Shown: positions 1-33,936 of the stretch, in pieces
Layout: each line of letters opens with the position of its first letter
Numbering within the stretch: the stretch's first letter is position 1
Virus genome (UHGV): UHGV-0334900
DNA length: 33,936 bases
Strand: one strand, 5' to 3'
Source: a virus
Notes under the pieces: model-generated
What the model was told of the DNA's origin: nothing
The model's input: the letters and a program-made list of their open reading frames with translations, nothing else
The model's database searches: none
Position numbers and translations under genes: made by a program

Positions 1-293
1 AAACGAGGCGGTAGGCATCACGCAGGGCTTTCTTCCATGGTTCCCCGGTTACTTCGTCAAGGCAATCAATAGCTCGGCGGGGAAAACCGCGGTCAATCAG
101 GCCAAGGCGTTCGTATGCCGCTCGGCGTTCTTCTTCCCGCTGCTTTTCAGCAGCCAGCGCTTCCGCTTCCAGCTCTTCAATGCTTCTTCCGTCGTCCTCG
201 GCAAGAAGGGTGATGGATTCCAGGAGGCTTTCAAGATTTACTCCTTTCAGTCCTCCCTGGGGTTTAATGGGTTCGTCAATCTTTCCAGAGGTC
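1..293 (-). CDS. Hypothetical early-region protein, 5'-partial at the window edge (ATG at 293-291)
   Basis: Open minus-strand frame from ATG at 293 to beyond position 1. Translation reads MTSGKIDEPIKPQGGLKGVNLESLLES...EKQREEERRAAYERLGL... It is co-oriented with the early operon and its start overlaps the stop of 276..1043. It is not in the ORF track because it is truncated. Confidence 0.35.
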
Positions 294-1043
294 ATCTCTT
301 CTTGATGGTTTAGTCGTTGATTTTGTCGGGGTTCCCGCGGCATTGGCGGGTTTCAGACCGGGCGCGTCCGCATTGTTCCGGGCCCAGGTGGCAGCGTATT
401 GGCGAGCCATGGGCCGCCAGTCCGCCAGGGGAACGCCGTGCCTGTTCCTCCATCCAACGGCGGCCTGCTCATTGAAAAACCGTTCCGCGCACCGGGTCAG
501 CTCGTCTCCGAGCGGGTGCAGAGCCTGGGCGGCCATAAAGCGGTCAACCTCGGTAACGTCCTTCGGAAATTGGCAAACCTCGCGCCCGGTTGTAGTTGTA
601 GTAGTATTATTATCTTCTCTTCTCTTCTCTGGTAACGGTTTTTGTAACGGTTCAAGCGTTACATTTTCGTTACATGTTTTTGCAACTCGCTCATGATGAG
701 CTTTTCTGCTATTCGCGACACGGCGGTTCGTATTGGCCCTATTCTTGGCGGATTGGCCGTTGTGGCGGTCAAAATTGGGGATTGAAAGGAGGCCCTCGCG
801 TCCATTCAACCAGCCGACTTTGACAAGCCCAGCGGCGAAGCCGGGGCAGAATACGAGACGGTCGAGAAACGAATTTGTAACGGTAATGGCGTTACCAGAA
901 ACGGATTGTTGATCAGCCCAAATCCAAAGGCGAAGCAGCTTGCCGACAACGGCATCCTGATCAATTCCAAGGATGCCGGCCAGCTTCACCACTTCGGGTT
1001 TGTCCGGTGTCGTGTGTTCCACCTTGATCCAGTCTCCGGCCAT
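276..1043 (-). CDS. Phage replication initiation / replisome-organiser protein (Phage_rep_org_N / DnaD-like N-terminal domain)
   Basis: N-terminus MAGDWIKVEHTTPDKPEVVKLAGILGI...GKLLRLWIWADQQSVSGNA matches the conserved W-I-K opening and helix pattern of phage replisome organisers. Central T-rich linker, C-terminal basic region. Position in the early operon beside the methyltransferases. Confidence 0.55.
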   Translation of the reverse strand: MAGDWIKVEHTTPDKPEVVKLAGILGIDQDAVVGKLLRLWIWADQQSVSGNAITVTNSFLDRLVFCPGFAAGLVKVGWLNGREGLLSIPNFDRHNGQSAKNRANTNRRVANSRKAHHERVAKTCNENVTLEPLQKPLPEKRREDNNTTTTTTGREVCQFPKDVTEVDRFMAAQALHPLGDELTRCAERFFNEQAAVGWRNRHGVPLADWRPMARQYAATWARNNADAPGLKPANAAGTPTKSTTKPSRRDDLWKD

Positions 1044-1055
1044 ATCAAAAAAGTG

Positions 1056-1526
1056 TCAGTTGGGGGTTGTAGATTTCATAAAGACCAGGAAGACGGTCTT
1101 CCCGCGGCGGTGTCCGAACAAAGGTTCATGGCTGGCCAGTTTCAGAACTTCCGCGGTTGAAACCTGATCCTCGCACCACTTGAACACCAGAACGCCGCCC
1201 GGTTCCAAAACCCGGAAACACTCCCGGAAACCGGCCTTCAAATCCTCCTGCCAAGTCTCCCTGTCCAGTTTTCCGTATTTCTTGGCCAGCCAGGACGATT
1301 CCCCGGCGTGAATCAGGTGCGGAGGGTCGAACACGACAAGGCGAAACGCCCCGTCACTGAAAGGCATGGCCCGGAAGTCTCCGACGACATCCGGCTTGAT
1401 TTCCAGAGTGCGCCCGTCGCAAAGCGTGTGTGTTTCCTCCCGGCGGTCCATGAACACCACGTCAGGATGGCGGCGGTCAAACCAGAACATGCGGGAGCCG
1501 CAGCAGGCATCAAGCACAGGCTTCAC
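1056..1526 (-). CDS. DNA amino-methyltransferase (N6-adenine or N4-cytosine), small phage-type orphan MTase
   Basis: Motif I-like LDACCGSRMFWF (AdoMet binding). Catalytic motif IV VVFDPPH (a DPPY/DPPH variant). 156 aa. Start overlaps the stop of the upstream C5-MTase by 4 nt (1523-1526). Confidence 0.7.
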   Translation of the reverse strand: MKPVLDACCGSRMFWFDRRHPDVVFMDRREETHTLCDGRTLEIKPDVVGDFRAMPFSDGAFRLVVFDPPHLIHAGESSWLAKKYGKLDRETWQEDLKAGFRECFRVLEPGGVLVFKWCEDQVSTAEVLKLASHEPLFGHRRGKTVFLVFMKSTTPN

Positions 1527-2293
1527 TTGCCCTCCTTTCCTTCTTGGAATCTGCCAAGCAAAACCCGGAATGCAGTTGCCGCCACTGCAGGAACTTGCCC
1601 GTTGCCAAGGGCTTTAAGCTCGTCCACTTCTGGGGCCACCCCATCATCAGGGCGGCGAAAGACGCTGACACACACATCCCCCTGACTCGCTTCCCACCGC
1701 TCCTGACATAGAGATATGCCAAGTAATCTTCCAAATTCCCTTTTGGTTTGCCTTCCTCCGCTCTCTTCCAACACAGTCCATGTTTGGCGATACATGCACG
1801 CATGGTGGGCAAGAATCCATATTCTGGCTCGATGATGGGGTAATCCAACGGCATCAGCTCCCAGCACACACCATTCTGCATCGTACCCGATTTCGGCAAG
1901 ATCACCGAGGACTCTGGCAAGTCCTCGTCCCACAAGCAAAGGTGAGTTTTCCAGGAATGCGAATTCCGGTCGTATTTCATTGATAATTCGGTGCATTTCC
2001 CGCCAGAGGCCGGAGCGGGCGCCGTCAATGCCGGCGCCTTTTCCTGCGGCTGAAATGTCCTGGCACGGGAAGCCTCCAGATACCACGTCAACAAGGCCGC
2101 GCCACGGTCGTCCGTCAAAGGTGCGTACGTCATCCCAAACCGGGAAAGGCGGGAGTAAGCCGTCATTTTGTCGGGCGAGCAGTACGCTTGCGGGATAGGG
2201 TTCGAGCTCGACGGCGCAAACAGTGCGGAATCCGAGCAGCGAGCTGCCAAGTATGCCTCCACCAGCGCCCGCGAAAAGATGTAGCTCATTCAC
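1523..2293 (-). CDS. DNA (cytosine-5)-methyltransferase
   Basis: Motif I LFAGAGGG (FxGxGG). Motif IV GGFPCQDIS (the PCQ catalytic Cys). Motif VI FLENSP (ENV). A GTG start at 2293 overlaps the TGA stop of 2290..2616 (GTGA coupling). The alternative frame 1510..2289 has none of these motifs. Confidence 0.85.
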   Translation of the reverse strand: MNELHLFAGAGGGILGSSLLGFRTVCAVELEPYPASVLLARQNDGLLPPFPVWDDVRTFDGRPWRGLVDVVSGGFPCQDISAAGKGAGIDGARSGLWREMHRIINEIRPEFAFLENSPLLVGRGLARVLGDLAEIGYDAEWCVLGADAVGLPHHRARIWILAHHACMYRQTWTVLEESGGRQTKREFGRLLGISLCQERWEASQGDVCVSVFRRPDDGVAPEVDELKALGNGQVPAVAATAFRVLLGRFQEGKEGK

Positions 2294-28239: not shown

Positions 28240-29662
28240 CGGTAAATCCTTTCATGAGGCCGGCGTAAATCATTTGCTGCAGCTGTTCATAGGCATCGGG
28301 CGGAATGAGGGCTTTTTCCGGCTCCCTGTTGGCCGCCGCCGTCACCGGAATGGGGTCCCGCGTGTCCTCGATCGACATGCCGATCTTTTCTTCGATTTCG
28401 GTCTTCTCGGGGCGGACGCCTCCGTCGGCAAGCGCGGCGATTTCCTCGGCCTTCTGCAGCGGCGTCTGGACGGTGTCAAAGGTGATGTGGAGGCGGGCCA
28501 GCGGTTCGCCGTCTCCCAGGACAAGCGGGCTGATGGCGGTGTTAAAAGCTTCGGCTACTTTGGAGCAGACCGCGGAGACGACCGAATTCCAGCTGTCCGT
28601 GTGCGCTCCCCCGGCCAGCGTGCCGGAGCCTGATTCATTCAGGACGGTCAGAGTGCCGGCCATGACAAACCGCACCTGGTCCTTGTCGGACATGTTGATT
28701 CGGGACAGGAAATAGTTTTCGTTGATGTTGGAGGCTTTCAACGGTTCTGCAGTGCAGCCGGGAGGCAGCACGATGGAGGCTCCCGATTTGAGTTCCTCGC
28801 ACGCTCGTTGCAGCGCGACCATGATGTCGGGGCTCGCGTCCTTCGGAGCCGTGATGATGGCCGGGGCGCTCCCGTAGCGGTCCATGTGATTGTCCCAGGT
28901 GACTTTGGCGTGATTCCGCTCAAAAGAGGCGCGGGTTGCCGGGAAAAGAATGGGGTTCCGGTGCTCCATGACCACGAGCGTTTCATCTTCCACGCTTTCG
29001 CCGGTGTCGACGCCGATGTAACATTGAGGGTTAAACTGCCATTCGTTCAACTCTCCGGGGCGGACCCAATAGCGTTGGGGGATGAATTCAAAGCGGCGGC
29101 CCCAGGCGTCCTCAATGTATTGGAGGTGGGCGTAACCGTAAAACATGGCGGAAGCCAGCTGCCCAAAGGCCTGCTGAAGTCCGGTGACGGAGTGATAGAA
29201 TTCTTCCAGCGCGTTTTGCTGACGCTGGGCTTCGGGGCTGTCGTCCGCCGCGTCAATCTTCCAGCCCTGCATGGAGACGCTTTCGATAAGCCGGGAATAG
29301 AGCATGCCCAGGAGACCGTCCGAGTAGATGACCTCGTCCCAGATGAGCATTTGTCGGGCAAAAGCTCCCCGCCGCGCTTCGTTCCGGGCGTCAATCAGGG
29401 TTTGCAGGTCGGCTCCCTGTAACGGATCCCAATATTCAAACCATTGGGGCTGGTTGGGCTTCCTGCTCTGTTCCGTCAAGGCTCGCCGGGTGAGTTCCGT
29501 TTCAAGCTCCTTGATTCTGGTCTCCTGTTGGGCGACCAGCTTCGGGGCGTTGAGGATATTTTTGACGGCGTTAAACCTGAGGCTAAAGAAAAGGTGGTTG
29601 CAGGGGAAGGAGTTGGACCTTCGATTCAGGGACAGGAACCCCGCGTGATACCGTTTCACCAC
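28214..29662 (-). CDS. Portal protein (Mu gp29/DUF935-like)
   Basis: 482 aa between TerL and the protease/scaffold. Overall resemblance to DUF935 portals. The N-terminal 30 aa are low-complexity and the true start is uncertain. Confidence 0.6.
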   Translation of the reverse strand: MVKRYHAGFLSLNRRSNSFPCNHLFFSLRFNAVKNILNAPKLVAQQETRIKELETELTRRALTEQSRKPNQPQWFEYWDPLQGADLQTLIDARNEARRGAFARQMLIWDEVIYSDGLLGMLYSRLIESVSMQGWKIDAADDSPEAQRQQNALEEFYHSVTGLQQAFGQLASAMFYGYAHLQYIEDAWGRRFEFIPQRYWVRPGELNEWQFNPQCYIGVDTGESVEDETLVVMEHRNPILFPATRASFERNHAKVTWDNHMDRYGSAPAIITAPKDASPDIMVALQRACEELKSGASIVLPPGCTAEPLKASNINENYFLSRINMSDKDQVRFVMAGTLTVLNESGSGTLAGGAHTDSWNSVVSAVCSKVAEAFNTAISPLVLGDGEPLARLHITFDTVQTPLQKAEEIAALADGGVRPEKTEIEEKIGMSIEDTRDPIPVTAAANREPEKALIPPDAYEQLQQMIYAGLMKGFTDDQYETNQ

Positions 29663-29715
29663 CCTGCGATTAATTACATATCTTCATATATTGATACGTT
29701 GATATATTGTCAACC

Positions 29716-31674: not shown

Positions 31675-32211
31675 GTGTCCCAAACTTTGGTCGAGATGAA
31701 ACAATGTCCCATCTGCGGAAAGGATGTTCCTCCGCGCGCGGGCAAGCGCGACAGCGTGTACTGTTCCCGGGCCTGCCTCCAGGCTCACTATGCGGAGGCC
31801 TGGGAAACGCTCACATGCCCTGTGTGCGGGAACGTATTCCGGGCCCAAAAACTGTGGCGCCGTCAATACTGCTCTGCGGAGTGCGCCAACCGCGCCCAGC
31901 GAGGGAGGAAAATCACGTCCGCAGCGTTTTTGGAGGCCTGCCGTCATCGTGGCGTTTGGGGACCTCGCAAGCATCCGAGGACCGGGAAATTTGAGACGAA
32001 TTGCCACGCCAAAGTCTGGCGGGTGGAGTCGCCGGAAGGAGAAGAGGTAACGGCACGCAATCTCAAGCTGTACATGGTCACCCGTTTTGGCGAAACCGAA
32101 GGCAAAAAGATTTATAAACTCTTGACCTGCGCCGCCTCCCGTTTCCGCAAATCGGGAAGAGGCACGGGGGCCGGATGGCGGATCCTGGAGGCTCCATCCG
32201 TCCCGGAATAA
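31675..32211 (+). CDS. Tandem zinc-ribbon protein (two CPxCG-x(10-13)-YCSxxC modules) with a His/Cys-containing C-terminal domain
   Basis: CPICGKDVPPRAGKRDSVYCSRAC and CPVCGNVFRAQKLWRRQYCSAEC, then CRHRGVWGPRKHPRTGKFETNCHAKVW (a possible HNH-like or zinc-knuckle region). Plus strand, opposite to the flanking phage operons. Confidence 0.45.
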   Translation: MSQTLVEMKQCPICGKDVPPRAGKRDSVYCSRACLQAHYAEAWETLTCPVCGNVFRAQKLWRRQYCSAECANRAQRGRKITSAAFLEACRHRGVWGPRKHPRTGKFETNCHAKVWRVESPEGEEVTARNLKLYMVTRFGETEGKKIYKLLTCAASRFRKSGRGTGAGWRILEAPSVPE

Positions 32212-32250
32212 AAAAGGGGCGGCTTCGAAAAAAACCGCCCCTTTTTAAGG
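32209..32250. terminator. Strong bidirectional rho-independent terminator
   Basis: AAAAAA-GGGGCGG-cttcgaaaaaaa-CCGCCCC-TTTTT. A-run before and T-run after a 7-bp GC stem. Overlaps the TAA of the zinc-ribbon gene. Confidence 0.7.
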
Positions 32251-32394: not shown

Positions 32395-32423
32395 TTGCAA
32401 TACTAAACAATGTTTAGTATATT
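32395..32423 (+). promoter_or_regulatory. Sigma70-type promoter (-35 TTGCAA, 17-bp spacer, -10 TATATT) with an embedded perfect 19-bp palindromic operator
   Basis: TTGCAA at 32395-32400. TATATT at 32418-32423. The palindrome TACTAAACA-A-TGTTTAGTA at 32401-32419 fills the spacer and overlaps the -10. Preceded by an A/T-rich UP-like tract. Confidence 0.55.
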
Positions 32424-32493
32424 GACCTTGTTGACGGGAGGTAAGGGACCGAACGAAGACACAATCCAAAACCAAATCAGAAAGAACAAGACA

Positions 32494-33213
32494 ATGACTA
32501 AAAACGAATTAACAGAAATTCTCCAACTGCACGAAATGTGGCTGAACGAGGAAGAAGGCGGCGCTCAGGCCAAATTTGAAGACCTCGACCTCAGGGGGCT
32601 CGACTTTAGGGGTGCTAACTTAATCAAGGCTGACTTTAAGGACGCCGACTGTTCCGGAGTTGATTTCACAGGGGCCGACTTGAGATGTGCCGATTTCACC
32701 GGGGCCAATCTAACCGGGGCCGATTTCGCCGGGGCCAATCTGAAATGGGCCAATTTTTACAAGGCCCATGTAACCGGAGCCAGATTTAACGGGGCTATCA
32801 TAGACTGCGCCGACTTTAGGTGGGCCCGCGGGATTGTCGACCTGACCGGAGAGAAAACAGAAACACAATCCAAAAGAAAGACCAAGAAAATGAACGACAA
32901 CAAAATCATCACCACGGAAGACGGCGAAGAAATCAATCTGAGCGCGCTTGAACGCGAATTCGGCAGCTATGATTTTGAAGGACACACCTACTATGCTGCT
33001 CGCCAAATGGAATTAACCAATCGTCTTTTTGCCGGATGCTACAACGATGCGGAAGAAGGAGAGGAATACATCTCTGAATACTCCGCGCCCGGATATGACG
33101 AAAACGGCAACCCCGTGGAAATCTTCATGACTTTCACGCAGGTGAAAGGTGAAGAGATAGACCCGGAAAACCTTAACTGGTTCCAGGACTCCGACCGCGT
33201 TGAAGCCCTCTAA
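32494..33213 (+). CDS. Pentapeptide-repeat protein (Qnr/MfpA-like right-handed quadrilateral beta-helix, DNA-mimic type) with an acidic C-terminal domain
   Basis: N-terminal ELTEILQLHEMWLNEEEGGAQA, then 14 or more consecutive A(D/N)LxG-type pentapeptides (FEDLD LRGLD FRGAN LIKAD FKDAD CSGVD FTGAD LRCAD FTGAN LTGAD FAGAN LKWAN FYKAH VTGAR FNGAI IDCAD FRWAR). The track start at 32410 lies inside the promoter's -10/operator, so ATG 32494 is preferred. Confidence 0.7.
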   Translation: MTKNELTEILQLHEMWLNEEEGGAQAKFEDLDLRGLDFRGANLIKADFKDADCSGVDFTGADLRCADFTGANLTGADFAGANLKWANFYKAHVTGARFNGAIIDCADFRWARGIVDLTGEKTETQSKRKTKKMNDNKIITTEDGEEINLSALEREFGSYDFEGHTYYAARQMELTNRLFAGCYNDAEEGEEYISEYSAPGYDENGNPVEIFMTFTQVKGEEIDPENLNWFQDSDRVEAL

Positions 33214-33221
33214 CCATGATT

Positions 33222-33245
33222 CCAGGGCGGTGCATGCCGCCCTGG
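33222..33245 (+). promoter_or_regulatory. GC-rich intercistronic hairpin between the pentapeptide and HTH genes
   Basis: CCAGGGCGG-TGCATG-CCGCCCTGG, a perfect 9-bp stem with a 6-nt loop and no T-run. A possible attenuator, processing site or protein-binding site. Confidence 0.45.
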
Positions 33246-33252
33246 CACAGCT

Positions 33253-33453
33253 ATGACTATTCAAGAATTTGTTGATTGGGTCCAGTCCAGATACCATTTG
33301 CGATCCAAAACATCCGCTGTCAAAAAGGCTGCGCAGATGTTGAGAGTGACGGAAATGGCGGTGTGGCAATGGTTGGGCGGGTCCAGAAAAATGAGCCCGT
33401 CGATGGAGCTGCTGATGGAGCTAATCACCCGTCACGGATTGCCGGACGAATAG
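33253..33453 (+). CDS. Cro/YdaS-like small HTH transcriptional regulator
   Basis: 66 aa. AAQMLRVTEMAVWQWLGGSRKMSP fits the Cro/CI-type HTH (helix, turn, recognition helix ending in W). Last gene of the plus-strand island. Confidence 0.5.
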   Translation: MTIQEFVDWVQSRYHLRSKTSAVKKAAQMLRVTEMAVWQWLGGSRKMSPSMELLMELITRHGLPDE

Positions 33454-33456
33454 ACC

Positions 33457-33490
33457 TATACGAGATTCCAGGGTATACGAGATTCCAGGG
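33457..33490. repeat. Exact 17-bp tandem duplication TATACGAGATTCCAGGG x2 filling the convergent intergenic region
   Basis: Copy 1 at 33457-33473 and copy 2 at 33474-33490. The TAG of the HTH gene is at 33451-33453 and the TAG of the DnaC-like gene at 33491-33493. A third GATTCCAGGG lies at 33217-33226. Confidence 0.6.
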
Positions 33491-33936
33491 CTATTCCCGG
33501 GGATGGTAATTGATCTCGCGGTAGGATTTCCAATCACAGGTGATGATGGTGCCGCAAAGGTGGATGCGGGAAACAATGGCCGGCCCGAGTCGATCTTCAA
33601 GGGCGGCGGGGCTGTAGTTGGAGATGATGATGGTCGGTTTGCCGTTCTGGTGCCGATAGTCAATGAGCCTTTCCAGCGCGGCGCCTGCAAAGTCCGTGTC
33701 CTTGACCTCGTGATACTCGTCCAGCACCAGAAGATACGGGGCCTTGTATCGCTTCATGACATCGGATTCCGAGCCGTTGCCGTTAAACGTCTCTCTCAAG
33801 TCCATCGTGTAATCATAGGCCTTGGTATAGAGGACGCGCCTCTTTCGCCTGTACATGAGGCGTCCAAGAAACGTGCTCAATACCGTTTTCCCGGTGCCGT
33901 ATCGCCCGTTCAGTACAATAATACTCCCAGGCGTCA
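33491..33936 (-). CDS. DnaC/IstB-like AAA+ replication ATPase (helicase loader), 5'-partial (runs off the window end)
   Basis: Walker A GRYGTGKTVLS encoded at the window edge. Walker B LLVLDEY. Sensor IIISNYS. The frame is open to position 33936. Confidence 0.6.
   Translation of the reverse strand, partial: TPGSIIVLNGRYGTGKTVLSTFLGRLMYRRKRRVLYTKAYDYTMDLRETFNGNGSESDVMKRYKAPYLLVLDEYHEVKDTDFAGAALERLIDYRHQNGKPTIIISNYSPAALEDRLGPAIVSRIHLCGTIITCDWKSYREINYHPRE

What the first reader, a model, noticed from the sequence alone, without database searches (positions are those of the whole stretch)
32410..33213. Phage-borne pentapeptide-repeat (Qnr/MfpA-like) protein on a counter-oriented moron island, a candidate DNA-mimic
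A 14-or-more-repeat pentapeptide beta-helix protein with an acidic C-terminal domain is encoded on the plus strand, between the replication and packaging modules of a phage whose genes are otherwise on the minus strand. It has its own promoter and is insulated by terminators. Known pentapeptide-repeat proteins (Qnr, MfpA, AlbG) act as B-DNA mimics that protect or inhibit type II topoisomerases. In a temperate phage, this could be an anti-defence factor against host DNA-targeting systems, a lysogenic-conversion gene giving tolerance to gyrase poisons (quinolones, microcin-like toxins), or a superinfection-exclusion factor. I do not know of this arrangement in any characterised phage, but I cannot check that here.
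Basis: partly seen in the sequence, partly recalled or inferred. Interest (0 to 1): 0.78.

Follow-up and report, generated by a model that had tools for sequence, protein, structure and literature searches.

The report
Phage pentapeptide-repeat gene in swappable operon
The pentapeptide-repeat protein is real, but it is a short, non-Qnr type fused to a second, very acidic small phage protein, and it is one of several interchangeable cargo genes in a self-regulated accessory operon of Akkermansia phages that looks like an anti-defence locus but has no known function.

Summary
The ORF is real, and its N-terminal half is a confident pentapeptide beta-helix (Pfam E=6.8e-23; AF2 pLDDT >90; 18 repeats).

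Three points in the finding need correcting:
- **Start codon.** The likely start is ATG 32494, giving 239 aa.
- **"Acidic C-terminal domain".** This is a separate gene family (module A, 107 aa, net charge -20) that is usually standalone. Here it is joined in frame because the stop codon between two cistrons is missing, and the linker is a second copy of the ribosome-loading leader.
- **Insulation.** The ORF is the first gene of an operon that ends in a conserved 66-aa Cro-like HTH gene. The promoter carries a perfect 10-1-10 palindrome between its -35 and -10 elements.

Across more than 25 related Akkermansia-phage loci, the promoter, leader and HTH stay constant while the cargo changes (A, PRP+B, C+A, N::A, PRP::B, PRP::A). 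The palindrome co-varies with the HTH variant. This is the acr-aca type of architecture.

Qnr/MfpA membership fails. Family HMM scores are far below cutoff, the helix has only 4.5 coils, there is no dimerisation helix, and the repeat region has a net charge of -2.

The most likely role is an autoregulated host-inhibitor or anti-defence cargo. That role is inferred, not shown.

The parts
32211..32246 (.). Bidirectional intrinsic terminator (AAAAAGGGGCGGCTT / AAACCGCCCCTTTTT). It separates the upstream Zn-ribbon gene from the operon.
   Evidence: I2; dG -19.7, z -3.2; conserved in L005 and L008
32395..32423 (+). Sigma70-like promoter, TTGCAA-17 nt-TATATT
   Evidence: the same promoter is found in L001-L017 and L019-L022
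32400..32420 (.). Perfect 10-1-10 palindrome ATACTAAACA-A-TGTTTAGTAT in the promoter spacer. It is the putative operator of the downstream HTH protein.
   Evidence: I5; unique in the window, with 0 expected by chance. The dyad is kept through changes on both arms in L009 (TACTATTCA-A-TGAATAGTA) and in L063/L064 (TTACTATAAA-T-TTTATAGTAA), which carry divergent HTH proteins.
32431..32493 (+). Conserved, unstructured, A-rich 5' leader and translation-initiation region. It is annotated in databases as the first 28 codons of a 267-aa ORF but is most likely untranslated.
   Evidence: RNA fold z=-0.02; leader length is 57, 62, 63 or 65 nt before the same ATG in relatives
32494..33213 (+). PRP::A fusion ORF, 239 aa (corrected start)
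   Evidence: the identical fusion appears in independent contigs L001 and L019, and a 95%-identical form exists as P0002
32500..32544 (+). N-terminal capping helix (residues 3-17, motif ELxEILxxHxMWL), shared with many phage pentapeptide-repeat proteins
   Evidence: phrog_7713 2.1e-21
32563..32832 (+). 18 pentapeptide repeats (residues 24-113), forming a right-handed beta-helix of about 4.5 coils
   Evidence: omega 0.31 against L007
32854..32889 (+). Disordered basic linker TETQSKRKTKK. At the DNA level it is a second, degenerate copy of the leader. In L005 the same place carries a TAA stop and an intergenic spacer.
   Evidence: pLDDT <50 for residues 121-134; repeats D4/D5; alignment
32890..33213 (+). 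Module A: a 107-aa, highly acidic small-protein family (net -20, pI 4.05) that is usually a standalone gene starting at this ATG. It has its own beta-rich fold with no known structural relative.
   Evidence: omega 0.14-0.24
33222..33245 (+). GC-rich hairpin (CCAGGGCGG-TGCATG-CCGCCCTGG) without a U tract, between module A and the HTH gene
   Evidence: dG -20.9, z -2.9; conserved with a G-U change in L009
33253..33453 (+). 66-aa Cro-like HTH protein, the last gene of the operon and the putative autorepressor (Aca-like by position)
   Evidence: weak Pfam YdaS/P22_Cro/HTH_23 hits; phrog_35 transcriptional repressor 8e-4; best PDB profile hit is the Cro-like repressor Gp39 (2hin), E=0.036; at least 90% identical behind every cargo type
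33457..33490 (.). Two perfect tandem 17-bp repeats, TATACGAGATTCCAGGG, at the convergent junction with the DnaC-like gene. Function unknown.
   Evidence: (D2)
31675..32211 (+). Neighbouring + strand gene of the island: a 178-aa double Zn-ribbon protein, HNH-endonuclease-like
   Evidence: phrog_1271 2e-11; Zn-ribbon Pfam hits

Best explanation
The ORF is cargo of a small, self-regulated accessory operon at a recombination hotspot between the packaging and replication modules of temperate Akkermansia phages.

**Operon layout.** A sigma70-like promoter has a perfect dyad operator in its spacer. It is followed by a 63-nt unstructured leader, one to three small acidic cargo cistrons, and a conserved 66-aa Cro-like HTH gene. 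Each cargo cistron is preceded by a copy of the same translation-initiation sequence.

**This phage.** Two cargo cistrons have become one reading frame because the stop codon between them is absent. The first is a short pentapeptide-repeat protein (PRP, 122 aa). The second is the polyanionic module A (107 aa). The linker is the old intercistronic leader, so A may also be made on its own from ATG 32890.

**Inferred mechanism.**
- The HTH dimer binds the palindrome and represses its own operon, as Aca proteins do.
- The cargo proteins are stoichiometric inhibitors or decoys of host factors, most likely defence or DNA-handling proteins.
- Module A is the more plausible nucleic-acid mimic. The short beta-helix is more likely a protein-binding scaffold.

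**Shown here:** the fold, the fusion anatomy, cargo swapping, purifying selection, and operator/HTH co-variation.

**Inferred only:** repression by the HTH, translation from 32494 and 32890, and any anti-defence activity.

My confidence per step is: architecture about 0.9, fusion origin about 0.85, autoregulation about 0.7, and an inhibitor or anti-defence role about 0.4.
For: **Constant frame, variable cargo.** In L001-L022 and L063-L064 the promoter, leader and HTH are kept. The cargo is A alone, N-domain::A, PRP+B, C+PRP+B, C+A, PRP2+PRP::B, or PRP::A.

**Fusion anatomy.**
- L005 has GCT-TAA where the window has ACA-GAA and L007 has GTT-GAA.
- The linker repeats the leader (D4/D5).
- A is mostly standalone, with clusters of 303, 142 and 54 member sequences, against 23+41 for the fusion.

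**Two independent modules.** pTM is 0.55, the linker is disordered, and A folds alone at pLDDT 88.

**Purifying selection.** Omega is 0.31 for the PRP and 0.14-0.24 for A.

**Operator.** There are three perfect dyads with a conserved outer TACT/AGTA and compensatory inner changes. Each is paired with a different HTH recognition helix: TEMAVWQWL, REITVWQWL or SDILVWKWL.

**Cargo character.** All cargo modules are small (85-122 aa), acidic (pI 4.0-5.1) and without enzymatic or membrane signatures.

**Accessory status.** The isolated Akkermansia phage DTMo-2021a lacks the island.

**Published paradigm.** In acr-aca operons, variable small genes are followed by an HTH that binds the operon promoter (PMC6765145 and PMC9410906; PMC13551039).
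Against: - No cargo module matches any known anti-defence, defence or toxin family in Pfam, PHROGs, NCBIfam, PADLOC, the PDB or BFVD.
- The HTH shows no detectable homology to Aca proteins with solved structures.
- Aca-regulated operons can carry cargo other than anti-defence genes.
- There are no expression data. The promoter is only a consensus match, although it is conserved.
- The operon shares its strand with the CI-like repressor and integrase genes, which fits lysogenic expression (a defence or conversion gene) equally well.
Confidence: 0.5

Rival explanations
1. The protein is a Qnr/MfpA/AlbG-like B-DNA mimic that binds gyrase or topoisomerase IV. It would give the lysogen tolerance to quinolones or gyrase poisons, or modulate host topoisomerases for the phage.
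For: It shares the pentapeptide fold with Qnr, MfpA, AlbG and McbG, with weak HMM and Foldseek similarity. The whole fusion is acidic, net -24. The neighbouring Zn-ribbon protein has a very weak YacG (gyrase inhibitor) Pfam hit, E=0.03.
Against: - Family HMM scores are far below cutoff: Qnr 29.6 against 240, MfpA 28 against 360.
- It has only 18 repeats (about 4.5 coils, roughly 90 residues), against chains of about 180-220 residues for MfpA and Qnr.
- It has no C-terminal dimerisation helix. The review read (PMC10886550) describes that helix as typical of these proteins. Here a disordered basic linker follows the repeats instead.
- The repeat region has a net charge of only -2.
- The PRP is dispensable at this locus and is replaced by unrelated cargo in sister phages.
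- McbG and QnrB did not act as anti-BREX mimics when tested (PMC7261183), so the fold alone does not imply anti-defence mimicry.
Confidence: 0.07
2. The operon is a prophage-encoded defence or superinfection-exclusion (lysogenic conversion) operon. It would be expressed from the prophage under its own HTH regulator and protect the lysogen against other phages.
For: - It is on the same strand as the CI-like repressor and integrase, with its own promoter and an upstream terminator.
- The locus is hypervariable, as expected for conflict genes.
- Bacterial homologues of the PRP module occur fused to TIR domains: P0053, P0101, P0117.
- Aca-type regulators can also control factors used against competing phages.
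Against: - There is no PADLOC hit.
- All cargo modules are 85-122 aa and acidic. I saw no transmembrane-like segments or enzymatic motifs, which is more typical of inhibitors than of effectors.
- Relatives of module A sit in arrays of tiny early-type ORFs of large lytic-looking phage contigs (L023, L025).
Confidence: 0.2
3. The operon is a toxin-antitoxin-like module. The cargo would be a toxin and the 66-aa HTH its antitoxin and autorepressor, with the toxin gene first, as in HigBA or MqsRA (gene order from my own knowledge).
For: The HTH gives weak hits to YdaS and to the spr1629 repressor/antitoxin models. It is the second gene and there is a dyad operator in the promoter.
Against: - The same HTH (at least 94% identical) follows at least six unrelated cargo combinations, including A alone, PRP+B and C+A. 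This does not fit cognate toxin neutralisation.
- The 66-aa protein is only a DNA-binding domain.
- The cargo proteins are acidic and lack any toxin fold.
Confidence: 0.04
4. The fusion is a non-functional accident, or an assembly or annotation artefact. Only A, translated from the internal ATG, or neither part, would matter.
For: - The fusion depends on a single codon (GAA against TAA).
- The fused form is the minority.
- The linker keeps the internal initiation region and its ATG.
Against: - The fusion is found in independent assemblies (ENA, Logan, IMG/VR: L001, L019, P0001, P0002). It persists across 5% divergence with both halves intact.
- A second, independent in-frame fusion, PRP::B, exists in L007.
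- Both halves are under purifying selection.
Confidence: 0.1

Closest known systems
acr-aca (anti-CRISPR / anti-CRISPR-associated) and related Aca-regulated anti-defence operons of phages
   Same: - One to three small, fast-swapping genes of unknown fold sit directly upstream of a conserved small HTH gene in one operon on a mobile element.
- An inverted repeat lies within the operon promoter.
- In relatives, the regulator family also heads a second adjacent cassette operon (L005, L020).
- Literature: PMC6765145, PMC9410906, PMC13551039.
   Different: - The HTH shows no detectable homology to solved Aca proteins. It belongs to a narrow family of 16 clusters, all apparently from Akkermansia-phage-type elements.
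- No cargo matches a known Acr or anti-defence protein.
- The 5' UTR is unstructured, unlike the Aca1 and Aca2 RNA motifs.
- Every cistron carries the same portable initiation sequence, which seems to serve as the recombination joint.
- No inhibition of any defence system has been shown.
Short cyanobacterial-type pentapeptide-repeat proteins (Alr5209 family, PDB 6omx)
   Same: It is the best NCBIfam hit (88.4 bits) and the best structural match relative to target length (TM 0.70, 118 columns). Both are a short single-domain right-handed quadrilateral beta-helix of about 120 residues.
   Different: The score is below the family cutoff of 125 bits. Here the protein is phage-encoded and fused to an unrelated acidic module. 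The function of Alr5209 itself is unknown.
Qnr / MfpA / AlbG / McbG topoisomerase-protecting pentapeptide-repeat proteins
   Same: Same repeat type and beta-helix fold; both are cytoplasmic and acidic overall.
   Different: - It has about half the number of coils.
- It has no dimerisation helix and I saw no Qnr-type loops.
- The repeat surface is near neutral.
- HMM scores are 8- to 13-fold below cutoff.
Polyanionic DNA-mimic anti-restriction proteins of phages and plasmids (Ocr, ArdA, Arn)
   Same: Module A is small (107 aa), extremely acidic (24% D+E, pI 4.05), phage-borne and encoded in variable or early regions. This is a resemblance of composition and context only.

Membership tests
Pentapeptide-repeat superfamily (Pfam PF00805 clan) | Tandem A(D/N)LXX-type pentapeptides scoring above the Pfam gathering threshold | tested here: met
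   80.3 bits against a cutoff of 20.2, E=6.8e-23; 18 repeats in register
Pentapeptide-repeat superfamily (Pfam PF00805 clan) | Right-handed quadrilateral beta-helix | tested here: met
   The AF2 model has pLDDT 86-96 with one bridge per 5 residues. Foldseek matches 48 PDB chains at E<=1e-3, and those listed are pentapeptide-repeat-containing proteins. This rests on a prediction, not a solved structure.
Qnr / MfpA topoisomerase-protecting PRPs | Score above the curated family HMM cutoff | tested here: not met
   penta_rpt_Qnr 29.6 bits against 240; mfpA 28 against 360; all Qnr subfamily models are at or below 27 bits against cutoffs of 425-500
Qnr / MfpA topoisomerase-protecting PRPs | A long helix (chains of about 180-220 residues) with a C-terminal helix that mediates tail-to-tail dimerisation into a DNA-sized rod (feature as described in PMC10886550) | tested here: not met
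   About 90 residues of repeats (4.5 coils). After the repeats comes a disordered basic linker (pLDDT <50, residues 121-134) and then an unrelated domain.
Qnr / MfpA topoisomerase-protecting PRPs | Strongly electronegative, DNA-like surface | tested here: inconclusive
   The repeat region has 13 D+E against 11 K+R, net -2. With the N-terminal helix the net is -8. The surface map could not be computed.
Qnr / MfpA topoisomerase-protecting PRPs | Binds gyrase or topoisomerase IV and protects against quinolones or other poisons | not testable with these tools
   Needs a supercoiling or cleavage assay and MIC measurement.
acr-aca-type (Aca-regulated) anti-defence operon | Variable small genes immediately upstream of a conserved HTH gene in one operon on a mobile element | tested here: met
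   Seven cargo arrangements sit in front of an HTH that is at least 90% identical across L001-L022.
acr-aca-type (Aca-regulated) anti-defence operon | Inverted repeat in the operon promoter that the HTH binds (autorepression) | tested here: inconclusive
   A perfect 10-1-10 dyad lies in the -35/-10 spacer and is unique in the genome. The dyad is preserved through compensatory changes that track HTH variants. Binding itself was not tested.
acr-aca-type (Aca-regulated) anti-defence operon | Regulator belongs to a described Aca family | tested here: not met
   A profile search of the PDB at E<=10 returns the Cro-like repressor Gp39 (2hin) and P22 C2, but no entry named Aca. Pfam gives only weak YdaS, P22_Cro and HTH_23 hits. 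Dedicated Aca HMMs were not available.
acr-aca-type (Aca-regulated) anti-defence operon | Cargo inhibits CRISPR-Cas or another defence system | not testable with these tools
   No homology to any characterised inhibitor.
Type II toxin-antitoxin module | Cognate toxin-antitoxin pair: a conserved toxin partner, and an antitoxin with a neutralising domain | tested here: not met
   The same 66-aa HTH-only protein follows unrelated cargo sets. The cargo proteins are acidic and have no toxin-family hit.
Alr5209-family PRP (NCBIfam NF052603) | Score above the equivalog cutoff | tested here: not met
   88.4 bits against 125, although it is the nearest structural neighbour.

The most novel reading that the evidence does not exclude
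Akkermansia phages carry an integrase-free gene-cassette system. Every cargo cistron would bring the same ~30-nt leader/initiation sequence, which doubles as the recombination joint. This would let PRP, A, B, C and N modules be shuffled, and sometimes welded into bipartite proteins, under one new Aca-like repressor family. On this reading PRP::A is a two-part counter-defence protein: a short beta-helix adaptor tethers an Ocr-like polyanionic decoy (module A, a family with 172 clusters at 50% identity and no described function or fold) to a host DNA-targeting immune complex.
Probability: 0.15. Interest if true: 0.7.

Novelty: new variant of a known kind. Interest (0 to 1): 0.45.

Why it matters
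Akkermansia muciniphila is a key gut commensal, and very little is known about its phage-host conflicts.

This locus offers a compact, testable set of at least six uncharacterised small proteins (PRP, PRP2, A, B, C, N). They are flagged by the same guilt-by-association logic that uncovered many anti-CRISPRs, together with a new small HTH/operator pair that has natural specificity variants.

Module A is a widespread phage protein family, with 172 clusters at 50% identity and no Pfam model or structural relative. Assigning it a function would annotate many phage genomes.

The finding also corrects an easy over-interpretation. A pentapeptide fold by itself does not make a Qnr-like DNA mimic.

Tried and rejected
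**Searches that found nothing useful**
- PADLOC gave no hit for PRP::A, module A or the Zn-ribbon protein, and only a weak chance-level RmrA hit (E=0.0027) for the HTH.
- Pfam, PHROGs and NCBIfam gave nothing on modules A, B, C, N, or on the 93/94-aa and 196-aa proteins, beyond HTH hits.
- The afdb50 fold library was unavailable.
- Cluster look-up of distant module A relatives returned only 'hypothetical protein'.
- Rfam scan of the whole window found only a tRNA.
- The genome-contig scan with PRP::A found only distant Micavibrio pentapeptide proteins and no Akkermansia representative genome.
- Literature searches for phage pentapeptide proteins as DNA mimics, anti-defence factors or anti-CRISPRs found no characterised example.

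**Ideas rejected**
- A structured regulatory RNA in the 5' leader: rejected, z=-0.02.
- The 66-aa HTH as the phage's main Cro: rejected, because a separate CI-like/divergent-gene/Ant/integrase region lies at 7.4-10.9 kb.
- A toxin-antitoxin reading: rejected, because one HTH serves many unrelated cargos.
- The 267-aa annotation starting at 32410: rejected (see the observation check).
Full report
**1. What is in the sequence**

The + strand ORF 32410..33213 exists. Its N-terminal half is a bona fide pentapeptide-repeat region. Pfam Pentapeptide scores 80.3 bits (E=6.8e-23), and Pentapeptide_3 and Pentapeptide_4 also exceed their cutoffs.

I ran an AlphaFold2 model of the 239-aa form with a 41-sequence alignment.
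- It has an N-terminal helix (residues 3-17).
- Next comes one beta-bridge every five residues from about residue 27 to 112, with pLDDT 86-96.
- Residues 121-134 form a disordered stretch (pLDDT <50).
- A separate beta-rich C-terminal domain follows.
- pTM is 0.55, so these are two independently folded modules on a flexible tether.

The repeats can be written in register as 18 pentapeptides, about 4.5 coils. Foldseek against the PDB returns pentapeptide-repeat structures.

**2. The genome around it**

The window is a circularly permuted, roughly 33.9-kb temperate phage genome.
- It encodes an integrase, a CI-like HTH, an Ant anti-repressor, RecT, an exonuclease, two DNA methyltransferases, a replication initiator, a DnaC-like loader that runs across the window ends, an Sf6-type terminase small subunit (terS), and further packaging and head genes on the - strand.
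- The terS-terL stretch is 87% identical to Akkermansia phage DTMo-2021a.
- The isolated phage DTMo-2021a lacks the whole island next to terS, so the island is accessory.

**3. Corrections to the observation**

- **Start codon.** A transcript from that promoter cannot include it. The stretch 32431-32493 is a conserved leader. Its distance to the first cargo ATG is 57, 62, 63 or 65 nt in relatives, so the frame is not conserved. In L002-type loci the gene is called from the downstream ATG. The likely start is therefore ATG 32494 (239 aa).
- **Terminators.** The upstream terminator is real and strong (32211-32246, dG -19.7, z -3.2). Downstream there is only a GC hairpin without a U tract (33222-33245). 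A co-oriented 66-aa HTH gene (33253..33453) follows, so the ORF heads an operon.

**4. The 'acidic C-terminal domain' is a separate gene**

A database search with the whole protein found three kinds of relative:
- full-length fusions (P0001, P0002);
- proteins that are only the PRP half (P0003 and P0004, ending ...NLSEEKA);
- many proteins that are only the C-terminal half.

A search with the C-terminal 107 aa found it mostly as a standalone 107-aa protein starting at the internal Met (MNDNK...). Clusters hold 303, 142 and 54 member sequences, against 23+41 for the fusion. I call this protein module A.

A DNA alignment of six loci shows the junction.
- L005 reads ...GAGAAAGCT-TAA-ACACAAACCAAACAC-ATG (stop, spacer, next gene).
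- L007 has GTT-GAA at the same place.
- The window has ACA-GAA, followed by ACACAATCCAAAAGAAAGACCAAGAAA-ATG.

The window's linker (TETQSKRKTKK) is, at the DNA level, a second copy of the leader that precedes the first ATG (repeat families D4/D5). So PRP::A is two cistrons read as one because the stop is absent. The internal initiation region and ATG 32890 are still intact.

L007 carries an independent in-frame fusion of the PRP to a different second gene, module B.

The fusion is not an assembly error. It recurs in ENA, Logan and IMG/VR contigs, and in a 95%-identical variant.

Both halves are under purifying selection. Omega is 0.31 for the PRP and 0.14-0.24 for A.

**5. The locus is a cassette operon**

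I compared L001-L022 and L063-L064.

Constant across these loci:
- the promoter;
- the leader TTGACGGGAGGTAAGGGACC...AGAAAGAACAAGACA-ATG;
- the terminal HTH gene. In L001-L007 and L009-L022 it is a 66-70-aa protein, at least 90% identical except in L007 (76%) and L009 (55%). L008, L063 and L064 carry a 311-337-aa multi-HTH regulator instead.

Cargo combinations between leader and HTH:
- A alone;
- an unrelated N-domain fused to A (201 aa);
- PRP (122 aa) + B (102 aa);
- C (85 aa) + PRP + B;
- C + A;
- a paralogous PRP2 (113 aa) + PRP::B;
- PRP::A (window, L001, L019).

Each PRP, PRP2, A, C and N::A cistron is preceded by the same ~25-30-nt A-rich initiation sequence. Module B has a shorter related one. 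That sequence is the obvious homology for exchanging cassettes.

Some relatives carry a second such operon upstream, with its own promoter and leader. It encodes a 93/94-aa protein and a 196-aa acidic-domain::HTH fusion.

All cargo modules are small and acidic (pI 4.0-5.1; module A has net charge -20). None has a hit in Pfam, PHROGs, NCBIfam or PADLOC.

**6. The regulator and its operator**

The promoter spacer holds a perfect 10-1-10 palindrome, ATACTAAACA-A-TGTTTAGTAT (32400-32420). It is unique in the genome, with zero expected by chance.

The central base varies (A or T) among loci while the arms are kept.

Loci with divergent regulators have different but still perfect dyads, with the outer TACT/AGTA conserved.

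| Locus | Dyad | Regulator | Recognition helix |
|---|---|---|---|
| window type | ATACTAAACA-A-TGTTTAGTAT | 66-aa HTH | TEMAVWQWL |
| L009 | TACTATTCA-A-TGAATAGTA | 55%-identical HTH | REITVWQWL |
| L063 / L064 | TTACTATAAA-T-TTTATAGTAA | multi-HTH protein whose last module is 65% identical | SDILVWKWL |

Compensatory change on both arms that tracks the HTH variant is what a dimeric repressor and its operator would show. Binding itself was not tested.

The HTH is Cro-like only at the margin. Pfam gives YdaS and P22_Cro at E about 0.01-0.03, and the best PDB profile hit is the Cro-like repressor Gp39 (2hin) at E=0.036. Its family is narrow, with 16 clusters. It is not the phage's main lysis-lysogeny switch, which lies at 7.4-10.9 kb.

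The 5' leader has no stable structure (z=-0.02).

**7. Comparison with what is known**

The architecture is that of acr-aca and other Aca-regulated operons. These have small, rapidly exchanged genes upstream of a conserved HTH, and the HTH binds an inverted repeat in the operon's promoter and represses it (PMC6765145 and PMC9410906; PMC13551039).

The same literature cautions that Aca-regulated cargo is diverse and mostly unannotated. The analogy therefore supports a 'conflict or accessory cargo' reading more firmly than a specific anti-defence activity.

Membership in a described Aca family was not demonstrated.

**8. Qnr/MfpA membership fails**

- The NCBIfam Qnr model scores 29.6 bits against a cutoff of 240, MfpA 28 against 360, and every Qnr subfamily model is at or below 27 bits.
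- The helix has about half the coils.
- It lacks the C-terminal dimerisation helix that the review PMC10886550 describes as typical.
- The repeat region has a net charge of -2.
- The nearest relatives by HMM and by structure are short Alr5209-type proteins of unknown function (88.4 bits, below the cutoff of 125; TM 0.70 on the target).

Phage pentapeptide proteins with the same N-terminal helix (ELxEILxxHxMWL) are common but uncharacterised. They fall in seven PHROG families and occur in 18 further viral contigs from unrelated phages, where they carry various C-terminal extensions.

**9. Module A**

- A profile search of 1.84 billion representative proteins finds 172 clusters at 50% identity. 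Most are 80-150 aa, and some sit at the C-terminus of longer acidic proteins.
- The ten longer members I scanned have no convincing Pfam domain, and sources name the members looked up only 'hypothetical protein'.
- Distant members sit in phage contigs among runs of tiny ORFs. One sits directly upstream of an HTH_3 gene (L026).
- By charge density it resembles polyanionic mimics such as Ocr and ArdA. That comparison is from my own knowledge and covers composition only, with no homology.

**10. Verdict**

- **Best reading (overall confidence about 0.5).** PRP::A is a stop-loss fusion of two interchangeable cargo genes in an autoregulated, Aca-like accessory operon of Akkermansia phages. It probably encodes stoichiometric inhibitors of host factors.
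- **Rivals.** These are a prophage defence or conversion operon (about 0.2), a functionless fusion (about 0.1), a Qnr-like gyrase mimic (about 0.07) and a toxin-antitoxin module (about 0.04).

It is a new variant of a known kind of locus, of moderate interest. Its main value is as a compact source of candidate anti-defence proteins and of a new regulator/operator pair in phages of an important gut bacterium.

Noticed in passing
window 29595-29668 (-): A tRNA-Arg (anticodon CCT) gene sits between the portal and large-terminase genes (Rfam 50.8 bits; ARAGORN).
   Followed up: partly
window 33457-33490, and 33211-33227: Two perfect tandem 17-bp repeats, TATACGAGATTCCAGGG, lie between the convergent HTH and DnaC-like stops. 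A degenerate third copy lies just before the HTH gene, so GATTCCAGGG brackets that gene. The repeats are conserved in related loci. Their role is unknown; they could be a recombination joint, iterons or something else.
   Followed up: partly
window 31675-32211 (+): A 178-aa protein with two CxxC...CSxxC treble-clef zinc ribbons. It hits phrog_1271 'HNH endonuclease' at 2e-11 and gives a very weak Pfam hit to the gyrase inhibitor YacG (E=0.03). It is the other + strand gene of the island and is replaced by other genes in some relatives.
   Followed up: no
window 33491-33936 joined to 1-295 (-): The DnaC-like helicase-loader gene runs over the window end into its start. The window is therefore a circular permutation of a complete, roughly 33.9-kb phage genome (compare L001 and L002).
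   Followed up: partly
L073 (Akkermansia phage DTMo-2021a, CP084202): This cultured Akkermansia muciniphila phage shares the terS-terL region at 87% identity but has no + strand island and no leader motif next to terS. It is a natural island-minus comparator.
   Followed up: partly
L005 2766-3659; L020 1858-2838; L067-L070: A second cassette operon sits upstream of the first in some relatives. It has its own promoter with an imperfect dyad (seen in L020, L068 and L069), a leader, a 93/94-aa protein (phrog_8389), and a 196-aa protein whose acidic N-terminal part is fused to an HTH homologous to the 66-aa regulator.
   Followed up: partly
L008 4447-5460; L063/L064 2763-3698: In these loci the 66-aa regulator is replaced by 311-337-aa proteins built of about four tandem HTH modules. 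The last module in L063/L064 is 65% identical to the window's HTH. Their promoters carry different dyads.
   Followed up: partly
window 1056-1526 and 1510-2289 (-): Two adjacent DNA methyltransferase-like genes (phrog_954 at 3.6e-80; phrog_1008 at 6e-7) lie in the replication module. This suggests the phage also counters restriction by self-methylation.
   Followed up: no
L032-L048 (viral contigs from unrelated phages): Pentapeptide-repeat proteins with the same N-terminal helix motif carry various other C-terminal extensions. One is a Cys-rich ...CPExGxFxGFKKA...IPADAKRSSA... domain shared by L036, L038 and L048. Several lie next to HTH_3-type genes. In L038/L039 two such genes are tandem.
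   Followed up: no
window 33222-33245: A GC-rich hairpin (dG -20.9 kcal/mol, no U tract) follows module A in each examined locus where A is the last cargo gene (window, L002, L009 with a G-U change, L021; related hairpins in L008 and L063). It is absent after module B. It may be an RNA-stability or processing element that travels with the A cassette.
   Followed up: partly
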